Shown here piece after piece: positions 3,001 to 6,000 of a stretch of DNA of 64,000 bases. Origin of the DNA: Okamejei kenojei (Eukaryota). Position 1 is the stretch's first letter; the number at the start of each line of letters is the position of its first letter. Made by a program: the position numbers. Where the stretch lies: the NCBI GenBank assembly GCA_035221665.1, contig CM069140.1, forward strand, positions 38,874,001 through 38,938,000. The letters are read 5' to 3'.

Positions 3001-6000
3001 GGAAGTTTTAGAGGAATTATAAATGATTTACATGTAATAACTGAAAGGAGTTGGCTAAATTCCATCACAAATGGTTTAAAAGAAGGTACAAAGAAAATCA
3101 TACTTCCTTGGTAAAATCTCAAACATCTTTATGCTGTATACTTGACAAAGCACGACCATAAGAGTGTTAATCACTGATTTTTTTTTTTGTCTGTTCAATA
3201 TCATTTTTTACACTGCAGGATGAAGATGGTGAAGTACTATCTGATGAAGAAATCCGAGCAGAGGTTGACACCTTCATGTTTGAAGGCCATGACACGACAG
3301 CAAGTGGAATTTCTTGGCTCTTGTACTGTCTGGCCCAACACACAGAACACCAGCAAAAGTGTAGGGAAGAAATCCAGGACCTTCTCAAGCAGCACAAACA
3401 AATTGAATGGTGAGCCTTAAATTAAGTCTATTGTCCATTGTTACATGGTAAGGAAAAAAAACCCTGCACTTTTCTAGGCTTTGAAGTTGTTGTGCAAAAA
3501 GATTCTGAATTATTCTGTGGGACTCTTCTTGGCCTGCAATCAGTTACTGGACACTGAGTAAGTTTGGCTGCAGAACATTTCCAAGCATACAATACAGTAT
3601 GCTCAGTTATGAACCACAGGCCTTTAGGTTAGTTTAGTTTAGAGATACATTGCAGAAACAGGACCTTTAGCACACCAAGCCCGCACACTAACACTATCTT
3701 ATACACACTCGGGACAATTTATAATTTTACCAAGCCAATATACCTACTAACCTGTACGTCTTTGGAGTGTGGGAGGAAAGTGAAGAGAATGTACAAACTC
3801 CGAACTGGCAGCACCCATAGTCAGGATCGAACCTGGGTCTCTGGTGCTGTAAAGCAGCAACTCTACCACTGCGCCATTGTGCCGCCCTTGTCCACAGGTC
3901 TTGTTGCCATTATGCCGCTGATGTTTGAACAACTTTGCAGTTAACATGGAAGAACTTGTACCATTAACAAAATAATAAAGAGAGATTCAGAACAGATGCA
4001 CAAAAAGGGTAGGTTTTTACTGTTACAAAATGTGTTCAAATGAGACTTTATGTAAAACTCGCCATAGAACTATATGGCAGGAGAATTATCAAAAACATCT
4101 TGGTCAGCATCTATCCATCAACCAACACCACTTAACGAAAAATGATCTGTTCACTTTCAAACTGCTGTTTGAAGGGATGGGCTCTGTACAAATTGACTAT
4201 CATGTAACGTGCTCAGTGGAATCCTCTGACCCAGAGGCTCAGTCACCTGTATATTTAATGAAGAGATGATAGATTTCGAGGAAATCAACAAGTTGACATG
4301 CCAGCTCATGTTACATTGAAGATGTGCTGCATTGTAATTTAGTTTCTGGACCAACAGCCGGTGTGAAACTGATCGAGAGATTCGGAGACACAAATTCAAA
4401 TCTCACCATGAAGCTGGAAATGTTAAATTCAAGAATTAAATAAATTTGCAATATGAAAACAAATGGTTATCTTTGTAAAAGTAACCCGATTGTTATTGAA
4501 AACCTATCTGGTTCACTGTTGTCCTTCATGGAGGCAAATCTGCCATGTGACTCCAGATCCTTAAAGAAGAATTATGCCTTGTTGCCTTTCTGGTTCAGGA
4601 GCAATTAAGAATTGACAATACATGTCTGCACACGTAATTCAAAATAAAGCCAACCTTGCATAAACAGATGATGCACCTGTAACTGTCAAATGAATGATAA
4701 TTGGACAGCCTGAGTGTTGGGGAGGTAGAGCGGAAATGGATGGTCATCCATATCTGATTGAAGGTCAATGCAGTCTTGATGGATTGCGTGACCACCTCTT
4801 GCTTCTATTCCTTATCAAAGTAAGAATTTCATTGTTATATCGGGGACATTTGACAGTAAAACACTCTTGACTCCATATGTTCTACAATACAATAACTGAC
4901 GATAACTGTTATTGGCTATAAAGCCCTTCAGGGATCCAATAAAATGCACACTAAGCACCAGCTTTGTAATGTTGCCATTATAATTCTAAGTAAAAAGAGT
5001 TGGCCTTGAGGACCATTTGCAAATAAAGGGCAAAATCTCTTGCCAAGATCCACAACAGCTACGTGGATGAATTCCAAGTGAAGGCTGCCACACAGCCTCC
5101 ACTCAGGGTTGTGCCACCATAATGCATCTTGGGATGTCAAAATACTAACAGCACGTACACAGTAAATGGCAGTAACCTCAGTGTTGATGTACAGCGGGAC
5201 ATTGGATCACAAGTTCACAGCTCCTTAAATAAGGCAACACAGGTGGATAGGGTTGTGAGGCTCTAGGTCTTGCCCTCATAGGCCTGGACAACAAGTATAA
5301 GAGTTGAGACATCATCTTATATCATTTAAAGGAATACAGGTGACATGTTTTTCACACAGATGGTGGTGTTTTAGTTCCGTTTAGTTTATTATTGTAATGC
5401 ATACCGATGTACAGTGAAAAGCTTGTGTTACATGTTATACAGTCAAAGAGAAGTTATACATGATTACAATCAGGCCGTCCACAGTGTATAGATAAAGGTA
5501 CAATATTCAATGCAAGATAAAGTCCGACTAAAGATTGTTCGGAGGTCTCCAATGAGGTAGATGGGAGGTGAGAACCACACTCTAACTGGTGGGAGGACAG
5601 CTCAGTTGCCTGGTAACAGCTGGGAAGAAACTGTCCCTGAATCTGGAAGTATGTGTTTTCAAACGTCTGTACCTCTTACCTGATGGGAGAGGAGAGAAGA
5701 ATGAGTGACTGGGGTGAGACTAGTCCTTGATTATGCTTGTGGCCTTGCCAAGACAGCATTAAGCTTATATTAAGTCAATGGAAGGGAGGATGGTTTGCGT
5801 GGTAGTCTGGGTACATCCACAACTCTCTGCATTTACTTGTGGTCTTGGATGGAGCTGTTCCCAAACCATGCTGTCATGCAACCCAAGAAAATGCTTTCAA
5901 CGGTGTATCTGTAGAAGTTGGTGAGGATTGTTGGGGATTGGTTGTTGCCGAACTTCCTAAGCCGCCTAAGAAAGTAGAGGTGTTGGTGTGCTTTGATGTG

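What the first reader, a model, noticed from the sequence alone, without database searches (positions are those of the whole stretch)
3261..3379. Gene-conversion signature: the I-helix segment of exon 8 is ~97% identical between two otherwise distant CYP4 paralogues
Seen (hand alignment): 3261-3379 versus 58385-58503 differ at only 4 of 119 nt (3 synonymous, 1 Thr/Pro). Exon 9 of the same two genes differs at about 42 of 134 nt, with most third positions changed, and the two ends of exon 8 are also diverged. Protein conservation alone does not explain identical synonymous sites. Known: this segment encodes the CYP4 I helix with the FEGHDTT glutamate that covalently links heme in CYP4A/4B omega-hydroxylases. 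Inferred: recent or recurrent interlocus gene conversion homogenising the catalytic core while substrate-recognition regions diverge.
Basis: partly seen in the sequence, partly recalled or inferred. Interest (0 to 1): 0.72.

Follow-up and report, generated by a model that had tools for sequence, protein, structure and literature searches.

The report
Short gene-conversion tract between CYP4 paralogues
Two old neighbouring cytochrome P450 (CYP4) genes of a skate-like fish share a nearly identical 120-base stretch in one exon, most likely copied from one gene to the other, which is a familiar process in P450 gene clusters.

Summary
Positions 3261-3379 and 58385-58503 differ at 4 of 119 nt (3 synonymous, 1 Thr/Pro). 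The near-identical core is 3259-3379, with 4 of 121 differences. The rest of exon 8 differs at 26 of 70 nt, exon 9 at 42 of 134 and exon 10 at 19 of 65. Introns do not align.

The genes are tandem CYP4B/4T-clade paralogues 55 kb apart. Their duplication predates the shark/ray split.

Synonymous divergence is 0.15 (0.03-0.47) in the tract and 1.1 (0.66-2.1) outside. Identical codons for identical residues number 33 of 36 inside and 26 of 46 outside. The scan-corrected permutation p is 0.005 for these codons and 0.0004 for third positions.

Interlocus gene conversion is the best explanation (about 0.65). It happened late relative to the duplication but is not young.

The functional reading is weaker. 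The 39-residue block is invariant in 7 of 9 elasmobranch proteins of both types, so selection alone keeps the protein identical. The protein data do not separate conversion from constraint.

The decisive test, cross-species synonymous divergence, could not be run because no elasmobranch DNA was on hand. Reads could not be checked either.

This is a new member of a known kind, of modest interest.

The parts
3259..3379 (+). It encodes the I-helix block with FEGHDTT.
   Evidence: 4 of 121 nt differ from 58383-58503. Perfect runs are 13, 41, 27, 19 and 17 nt; dS 0.15, dN 0.02 over 40 codons.
58383..58503 (+). The same core in exon 8 of gene B.
   Evidence: Offset 55124, no gaps.
3219..3409 (+). 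Gene A exon 8 (191 nt, AG/GT flanks). Both ends are diverged from B.
   Evidence: Pfam p450 E = 3.3e-21. Matches PDB 5t6q CYP4B1 at E = 8.8e-23.
58343..58533 (+). Gene B exon 8 (191 nt, AG/GT flanks).
   Evidence: Pfam p450 E = 1.1e-20. 62 of 63 residues match Amblyraja radiata P0030.
8368..8501 (+). Gene A exon 9 (134 nt), used as unconverted comparison.
   Evidence: 42 of 134 nt differ from B. dS 1.24.
59340..59473 (+). Gene B exon 9 (134 nt).
15975..16039 (+). Gene A exon 10 (65 nt), used as unconverted comparison.
   Evidence: 19 of 65 nt differ from B. dS 2.17.
61258..61322 (+). Gene B exon 10 (65 nt), the last B exon found in the window.
19028..19110 (+). Gene A exon 11 (83 nt).
   Evidence: AG/GT flanks. 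Translation.
21087..21279 (+). Gene A exon 12 with the heme-thiolate Cys motif and the stop codon.
   Evidence: Pfam p450 C-terminal part E = 2e-10.
45792..57474 (+). Gene B exons 1-7: 45792-45965, 48170-48314, 52540-52584, 55775-55902, 56115-56239, 56865-57016, 57368-57474. The N run 49525-49653 lies in intron 2 and was left alone.
   Evidence: tblastn with named elasmobranch proteins. Splice sites read. Exon by exon, 402 of 419 residues match P0030. N run.

Best explanation
The tract is a short interlocus (non-allelic) gene conversion. The window holds two tandem, same-strand CYP4 genes of the CYP4B/4T clade, 55 kb apart. They arose by a duplication in the cartilaginous-fish lineage before sharks and rays split. 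Long after that duplication, about 120 nt of exon 8 in one gene was overwritten from the other, or both from a third copy, by heteroduplex repair during recombination. The tract sits in the I-helix block, whose residues are invariant in both genes. That block is the only place where the two genes would have stayed alike enough at the DNA level to pair. The diverged exon ends stopped the tract on both sides. Since then the copies have gained three synonymous transitions and one Thr/Pro change.

Shown: the segment-wise drop in synonymous divergence, the age of the duplication, the tandem arrangement, and the absence of intron homology.

Inferred: the conversion itself, its direction (unknown), that there was a single event, and that it is selectively neutral rather than a means of keeping the catalytic core alike.
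For: Synonymous divergence:
- tract dS 0.15 and dN 0.02 over 40 codons. The other 88 shared codons give dS 1.11 and dN 0.31.
- the 95% ranges are 0.03-0.47 and 0.66-2.09 and do not overlap.
- identical codons for identical degenerate residues are 33 of 36 inside and 26 of 46 outside (Fisher p = 4.4e-4). Permutation p is 0.005 for these codons and 0.0004 for third positions.
- Other residue-identical blocks of 4 or more residues have 10 of 17 identical codons.
- Synonymous changes are 3 transitions and 0 transversions inside, against 9 and 12 outside, as expected for a young tract beside saturated flanks.

Local anatomy:
- the longest perfect runs are 41 and 27 nt in the core, against 9 and 11 nt in exons 9 and 10.
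- the only colinear A/B similarity is at exons 8, 9 and 10. The introns are unrelated, so this is not a young duplicate.

Age of the duplication:
- A-type proteins (rays and sharks, 100/98*) and B-type proteins (skate and sharks, 100/100*) are separate clades inside one elasmobranch clade (99/99* with the tract columns removed).

Rivals checked:
- no RNA-structure signal (z = +0.63 and +0.23) and no Rfam family that could explain nucleotide-level constraint.
- Four differences remain within the tract, so the two copies are not a collapsed or copied assembly stretch.

Literature: conversion among clustered P450 genes is established (PMC1866355 and PMC3022543, passages read).
Against: - The edges of the tract coincide, within one or two codons, with the edges of the residue block that is invariant in nearly all elasmobranch A and B proteins. 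That is what a property of the block itself, meaning constraint, would also give.
- The sample is small: 36 informative codons, and a scan-corrected p of only 0.005.
- The flanks are only about 55-70% identical, so there is little homology to start or carry a conversion.
- The protein data are neutral. Within the A and B clades the block changed only twice over about 0.92 substitutions per site of tree (my arithmetic). On that rate, zero fixed A/B differences is expected (0.72 expected, P = 0.49).
- GC3 is higher in the tract (0.55 against 0.40-0.45), as biased conversion would give, but not significantly (p = 0.08).
- No DNA of other elasmobranchs and no reads could be examined.
Confidence: 0.65

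Rival explanations
1. Nucleotide-level (synonymous) constraint without conversion. The 120 nt would carry a second function in both genes, such as splicing control, a regulatory element inside the exon, or an RNA feature, and would have been frozen since the duplication.
For: The tract edges match the edges of the invariant residue block in other species. In elasmobranchs the block is far more conserved than in bony vertebrates. The summed A-against-B difference is 0.33, where 6.46 is expected from bony-vertebrate diversity in the same columns. Of 98 bony pairs at similar overall divergence, 2 have 2 or fewer differences in the block.
Against: No stable RNA fold (z = +0.63 and +0.23). No Rfam family anywhere in the window. 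The antisense frame that is open across both copies matches no Pfam family. Freezing about 36 synonymous sites in two paralogues across more than the shark/ray divergence would be ultraconserved-element behaviour, which I do not know of for P450 genes (recall). The three synonymous differences that do exist are all transitions, as in young neutral divergence.
Confidence: 0.12
2. Assembly or polishing artefact. Reads of one copy would have been used to correct the other, making a read-sized stretch falsely alike.
For: The tract is about as long as a short read. Both copies lie in one assembly with a gap nearby (N run 49525-49653). No reads could be inspected.
Against: Four differences remain inside the tract, one of them a residue change. 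Reads mis-map only where the copies are already alike, and the exon ends and introns are strongly diverged. Both exons keep frame and splice sites. B exon 8 matches the Amblyraja radiata protein at 62 of 63 residues.
Confidence: 0.05
3. Chance on top of protein constraint. An invariant residue block plus shared codon preference would happen to leave most codons the same.
For: Outside the tract, 26 of 46 same-residue codons are also identical, so the baseline is high. The segment was picked by eye after the fact.
Against: The binomial probability of 33 or more of 36 at that baseline is 4.4e-6. Corrected for the choice of segment, p is 0.005 and 0.0004. The longest perfect run is 41 nt, against 9-11 nt in exons 9 and 10.
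Confidence: 0.04

Closest known systems
Gene conversion among clustered vertebrate P450 genes (GENECONV survey of mouse and human CYP clusters, PMC1866355, passages read)
   Same: Tandem xenobiotic-type P450 paralogues with short converted regions. That paper reports conversions affecting 'only a few genes in <10% of their coding region'. Here about 120 nt is affected, which I estimate at roughly 8% of a coding sequence of about 1.5 kb.
   Different: That survey covers mammals and gives no CYP4 detail in the passages I read. Here the partners are much older paralogues (dS about 1.1) in a cartilaginous fish, and the tract is confined to one residue-invariant block.
CYP1A subfamily conversion (Goldstone and Stegeman 2006, J Mol Evol; seen only as an entry in the reference list of PMC1866355, content recalled)
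   Same: As I recall it, paralogous P450s are homogenised by conversion in parts of the gene while other parts diverge.
   Different: Another P450 family, with longer and repeated tracts that distort the gene tree. Here the gene tree is unaffected: A and B clades stay apart with or without the tract columns.
CYP4BL genes of the gastropod Cyphoma gibbosum (PMC3022543, passages read)
   Same: [quoted passage not shown]
   Different: Those are very similar young copies (some above 97% identical) known from cDNAs, and the authors could not exclude alleles. Here the copies are old and are located on one contig.
CYP4B1 I helix with the heme-ester glutamate (rabbit CYP4B1, PDB 5t6q and 6c93; PMC9916508, passages read)
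   Same: The tract encodes the block that aligns with the CYP4B1 I helix and includes the Glu of FEGHDTT. The review states that E310 is ester-linked to the heme 5-methyl and that I-helix residues are strongly conserved.
   Different: No biochemical evidence exists here for either skate-like protein. The review notes that this Glu is replaced in some species.

Membership tests
Cytochrome P450 family 4, CYP4B/4T clade | P450 domain | tested here: met
   Pfam PF00067 for exon 8 of A (E = 3.3e-21), exon 8 of B (1.1e-20) and exon 12 of A (2e-10). Exon-by-exon tblastn to named elasmobranch CYP4 proteins.
Cytochrome P450 family 4, CYP4B/4T clade | CYP4 I-helix signature with the FEGHDTT glutamate | tested here: met
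   Present in both genes. Aligned with CYP4B1 5t6q; chain 6c93 carries Ala at this Glu and is the E310A mutant (PMC9916508).
Cytochrome P450 family 4, CYP4B/4T clade | Heme-thiolate Cys motif | tested here: inconclusive
   Present in gene A exons 11-12. Exons 11-12 of gene B were not found in the window.
Cytochrome P450 family 4, CYP4B/4T clade | Placement inside the CYP4B/4T clade rather than CYP4F | tested here: met
   Named elasmobranch relatives of A and B group with bony-vertebrate 4B1/4T8 proteins and away from two CYP4F22 outgroups (100/100*). The window's own exons were not joined and so were not placed in the tree. P0030 (402 of 419 residues identical) stands in for B.
Cytochrome P450 family 4, CYP4B/4T clade | Covalent heme ester and omega-hydroxylase activity | not testable with these tools
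   Needs expressed protein.
Interlocus gene conversion tract | A discrete segment with much lower divergence than its flanks, including synonymous sites | tested here: met
   dS 0.15 against 1.11. Permutation p = 0.005 and 0.0004. 4 of 121 nt against 26 of 70 nt within the same exon.
Interlocus gene conversion tract | Donor and acceptor are paralogues in one genome, here tandem on one strand | tested here: met
   Both on the + strand, 55124 nt apart.
Interlocus gene conversion tract | Tree conflict: the tract groups copies by species, the flanks by orthology | tested here: inconclusive
   The flanks group by orthology at the protein level. The tract is invariant at the protein level, so it gives no tree.
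Interlocus gene conversion tract | Synonymous constraint excluded (normal dS in the tract between orthologues) | not testable with these tools
   No elasmobranch DNA on hand. Only indirect checks were possible: RNA fold and Rfam, both negative.
Interlocus gene conversion tract | Both copies confirmed by reads | not testable with these tools
   No reads available.

The most novel reading that the evidence does not exclude
The I-helix block may be a long-lived island of concerted evolution. Conversion between the A and B genes would have recurred in many elasmobranch lineages since before the shark/ray split, and would help keep the block identical in both genes. The B gene of Heptranchias perlo (P0121) would be a copy that escaped. 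It has B-type flanks but 7 changes in the 39 residues, about what unconverted paralogues at this divergence show in bony vertebrates (median 7.5).
Probability: 0.15. Interest if true: 0.5.

Novelty: new member of a known kind. Interest (0 to 1): 0.27.

Why it matters
The practical point is for P450 phylogeny and selection scans in cartilaginous fishes. A converted tract in exon 8 would bias dS, dN/dS and tree estimates if left in. The most conserved catalytic block is where such tracts should be looked for.

The case also shows that a conversion signature inside a residue-invariant block says little about function. The protein would be identical there with or without conversion.

If the bolder reading held, it would be a clean example of how sequence conservation by selection and homogenisation by conversion feed each other. 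That reading is recurrent conversion over hundreds of millions of years, with one escaped copy.

Tried and rejected
- RNA structure as a cause of synonymous conservation. Both tracts fold no better than shuffles (z = +0.63 and +0.23), like the exon 9 controls (+1.38, +1.21).
- Rfam scan of the whole window. No family reached its gathering score.
- Antisense dual coding. One minus-strand frame is open across exon 8 in both copies (84 and 79 residues). It matches no Pfam family at E up to 1, and its 51 of 68 identity only mirrors the DNA identity.
- GC-biased conversion. GC3 is 22 of 40 in the tract against 70 of 177 in the rest of A, p = 0.08. The B figure includes one exon read in the wrong frame, so it is only approximate.
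- Intron or wider homology. blastn of 1-22000 against 44001-64000 gave colinear matches only at exons 8, 9 and 10. The other matches are interspersed repeats.
- Protein-level test for conversion. The block has zero fixed A/B differences where 6.46 are expected from bony-vertebrate diversity. However, the block is just as frozen within the A and B clades, so this is not evidence for conversion (and my arithmetic).
- Search for a skate A-type protein, to see whether the Thr at 3342 is shared. None appeared among the 120 best hits of either A-exon query. The best A-type hit is Hypanus sabinus at 90% and 85%. This is weak evidence of absence.
- Literature. Searches (terms as listed in those calls) found no paper on conversion in elasmobranch CYP4 genes. 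Supplements were closed, so Additional file 10 of PMC3022543 stayed unseen.
- Direction of the conversion. It cannot be told. B carries the Pro shared by all other proteins at 3342, but that only says the Thr in A is derived.
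Full report
**What is in the window.**
The window is 64000 nt with 42% G+C and one N run at 49525-49653. I left that run alone. I do not take the window for human. Every exon finds its best named matches in elasmobranch CYP4 proteins.

tblastn with six named elasmobranch proteins and the splice sites read give two genes on the + strand.

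| Gene | Exons in window | Coordinates |
|---|---|---|
| A | 8-12 only | 3219-3409, 8368-8501, 15975-16039, 19028-19110, 21087-21279 |
| B | 1-10 | 45792-45965, 48170-48314, 52540-52584, 55775-55902, 56115-56239, 56865-57016, 57368-57474, 58343-58533, 59340-59473, 61258-61322 |

Exon by exon, B matches Amblyraja radiata P0030 at 402 of 419 residues. The source is therefore a skate-like batoid. A is closest to proteins labelled CYP4T8 or CYP4B1-like of Hypanus, Mobula and Mustelus, at 81-90% in exons 8 and 12.

The FEGHDT-coding motif occurs exactly twice in the window, once per gene. All searches used single exons or a named database protein, and all codon counts were made exon by exon with split codons left out.

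**The observation.**
It is correct. Positions 3261-3379 and 58385-58503 differ at 4 of 119 nt, three synonymous and one Thr/Pro. The differences by segment are as follows.

| Segment | Differences |
|---|---|
| Exon 8, 5' part (3219-3258) | 12 of 40 |
| Exon 8, core (3259-3379) | 4 of 121 |
| Exon 8, 3' part (3380-3409) | 14 of 30 |
| Exon 9 | 42 of 134 |
| Exon 10 | 19 of 65 |

Perfect runs in the core are 41, 27, 19, 17 and 13 nt. The longest runs in exons 9 and 10 are 9 and 11 nt. Outside exons 8-10 the two loci share only interspersed repeats, and the introns are unrelated.

**Is it more than chance and protein constraint?**
- By the Nei-Gojobori counting method, the tract (40 codons) has dS 0.15 and dN 0.02. 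The other 88 shared codons have dS 1.11 and dN 0.31.
- The 95% ranges are 0.03-0.47 and 0.66-2.09.
- Among codons that encode the same degenerate residue in both genes, 33 of 36 are identical inside and 26 of 46 outside (Fisher p = 4.4e-4).
- Other blocks of four or more identical residues give 10 of 17 identical codons.
- Because the segment was chosen by eye, I permuted the match/mismatch vector 100000 times. The maximal-scoring fragment has p = 0.005 on same-residue codons and p = 0.0004 on all third positions. The longest uninterrupted run alone is not significant (p = 0.21).
- Synonymous changes are 3 transitions and 0 transversions inside, against 9 and 12 outside.

The signal is real but rests on few sites.

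**How old are the paralogues?**
From about 298 stored hits I chose by hand all 9 named elasmobranch proteins, 19 named bony-vertebrate CYP4B1/4T8-like proteins and 2 CYP4F22 outgroups.
- In the tree of these 30, the elasmobranch proteins form one clade (100/99*). It splits into an A-type clade (Hypanus, Mobula, Mustelus, Chiloscyllium, Pristiophorus) and a B-type clade (Amblyraja, Heterodontus, Rhincodon, Heptranchias; 100/100*).
- I then dropped Pristiophorus P0020, which had an end branch of 1.03 and odd composition, and removed the 39 tract columns. The result holds: A+B 99/99*, A 100/98*, B 100/100*.
- The duplication therefore happened in the cartilaginous-fish lineage and before sharks and rays split. 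The tract does not drive the tree.

'Otherwise distant paralogues' is right. A-by-B protein pairs differ at 30-47% of sites outside the tract.

**What the tract encodes.**
Exon 8 matches Pfam p450 and aligns with rabbit CYP4B1 (5t6q, E = 8.8e-23). The chain of 6c93 has Ala where the query has the Glu of FEGHDTT. The review PMC9916508 (passages read) says three things: 6c93 is the E310A mutant, E310 lies in the I helix and is ester-linked to the heme 5-methyl, and I-helix residues are strongly conserved. That the I helix also carries substrate-recognition site 4 is my recall and comes from no call.

**Protein-level evidence from other species.**
The 39-residue block is identical in 7 of the 9 named elasmobranch proteins, of both A and B types. 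The exceptions are Mustelus A and Heptranchias B. Mustelus A has one change (His to Tyr). Rhincodon B also has one change (Gln to Arg), but at the block's last residue, which is why one search counts it as one difference.

The exon ends on either side group cleanly by orthology.

Among the 98 bony-vertebrate pairs with 30-42% divergence outside the block (of the 171 possible among 19 rows), block differences have median 7.5 and range 1-12. Only 2 of the 98 pairs have 2 or fewer. The 12 elasmobranch A-by-B pairs without Heptranchias have 0-2.

In a column scan there are 103 fixed A/B differences in 505 columns but none in the block, where 6.46 differences would be expected from bony-vertebrate diversity. 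Other equally conserved windows have 3-10 fixed differences.

This looked like support for homogenisation, but it is not. Within the A and B clades (without Heptranchias) the block changed only twice, over about 0.92 substitutions per site of tree length. On that rate the two stem branches (0.33) would carry 0.72 changes, and none is unremarkable (P = 0.49). The branch sums are mine, and the probability is. The block is simply under very strong selection in elasmobranchs, and the protein data do not separate conversion from constraint.

**An oddity.**
Heptranchias perlo B (P0121) has B-type flanks but 7 changes in the 39 residues. Three of them fall in the FEGHDTT motif (Phe to Tyr, Asp to Glu, Thr to Ile). 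Its end branch is only 0.073, which predicts 2.8 changes at the average rate (P of 7 or more = 0.024). It also has several changes at otherwise conserved positions of exon 9. It may be a relaxed or pseudogenised copy, a mis-modelled gene, or a copy whose block was never overwritten. I could not tell which.

**Interpretation.**
The best reading is one interlocus conversion of about 120 nt between tandem paralogues, confined to the only segment alike enough to pair. It is late relative to the duplication: tract dS is about one seventh of the flanking dS. It is not young in absolute terms. As a rough inference only, the residue divergence of window B from Amblyraja P0030 is 4.1%, about a tenth of the 43% between A and B outside the tract. 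The event may therefore be of the same order of age as the divergence between skate genera. I put this reading at about 0.65.

The rivals are:
- Synonymous constraint in the block (0.12). The tract edges match the invariant residue block. Against it, there is no RNA fold signal, no Rfam family and no meaningful antisense frame.
- An assembly or polishing artefact (0.05). Four differences remain and the flanks are diverged.
- Chance (0.04).

**What stayed unchecked.**
Per-exon dS between orthologues and GENECONV/RDP on several species could therefore not be run.
- Reads were not available.
- Exons 1-7 of A and 11-12 of B lie outside the window, so only 130 codons could be compared.
- Supplements of papers were closed.
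- Literature searches found conversion in P450 clusters in general (PMC1866355, PMC3022543) but nothing on elasmobranch CYP4 genes.

**Verdict.**
This is a new member of a known kind, of modest interest.

Noticed in passing
window 351-1277 (-): A 309-residue open frame (stop to stop) on the opposite strand, upstream of gene A exon 8 and probably inside its intron 7. It matches Pfam FAM110_C (E = 2.5e-8). It contains the 33-nt tandem repeat at 622-926. It may be a nested FAM110-like gene.
   Followed up: partly
window 40614-43447 (-), 10478-12387, 30933-32520: A LINE-like element with reverse-transcriptase and endonuclease frames lies between the two genes. A 93-95% identical copy lies in intron 9 of gene A, and a more diverged third copy lies at about 31-32.5 kb.
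   Followed up: partly
window 12935, 14056, 14618, 20336, 20960, 27062, 28798, 44076, 46830, 59080 (each about 64-90 nt): Ten copies of a short interspersed repeat (66-100% identical to the reference copy) lie in introns of both genes and between them. They account for most non-exonic A/B blastn matches.
   Followed up: no
window 38697-39143; 33990-35800; 56448-56724: A 149-nt tandem repeat (3 copies) and long C-rich low-complexity stretches. The last of these lies in intron 5 of gene B.
   Followed up: no
protein P0121 (Heptranchias perlo, B type), residues aligned to window 58385-58501: This is the only elasmobranch protein with a diverged I-helix block. It has 7 of 39 residues changed, three of them in the FEGHDTT motif, with normal B-type flanks.
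   Followed up: partly
protein P0020 (Pristiophorus japonicus, A type): Its end branch is 1.03 and its composition is odd in the tree, although its exon 8 block is normal. Part of this isoform model is probably wrong. It was left out of the second tree.
   Followed up: no
window 3219-21279 (gene A): No skate protein of the A type appeared among the best 120 hits of two A-exon searches. Yet exons 8-12 here are open, with intact splice sites and heme motif. The gene may be unannotated in skates.
   Followed up: partly
window 49525-49653: This is the only N run (129 nt). It lies in intron 2 of gene B and was left as it is.
   Followed up: no
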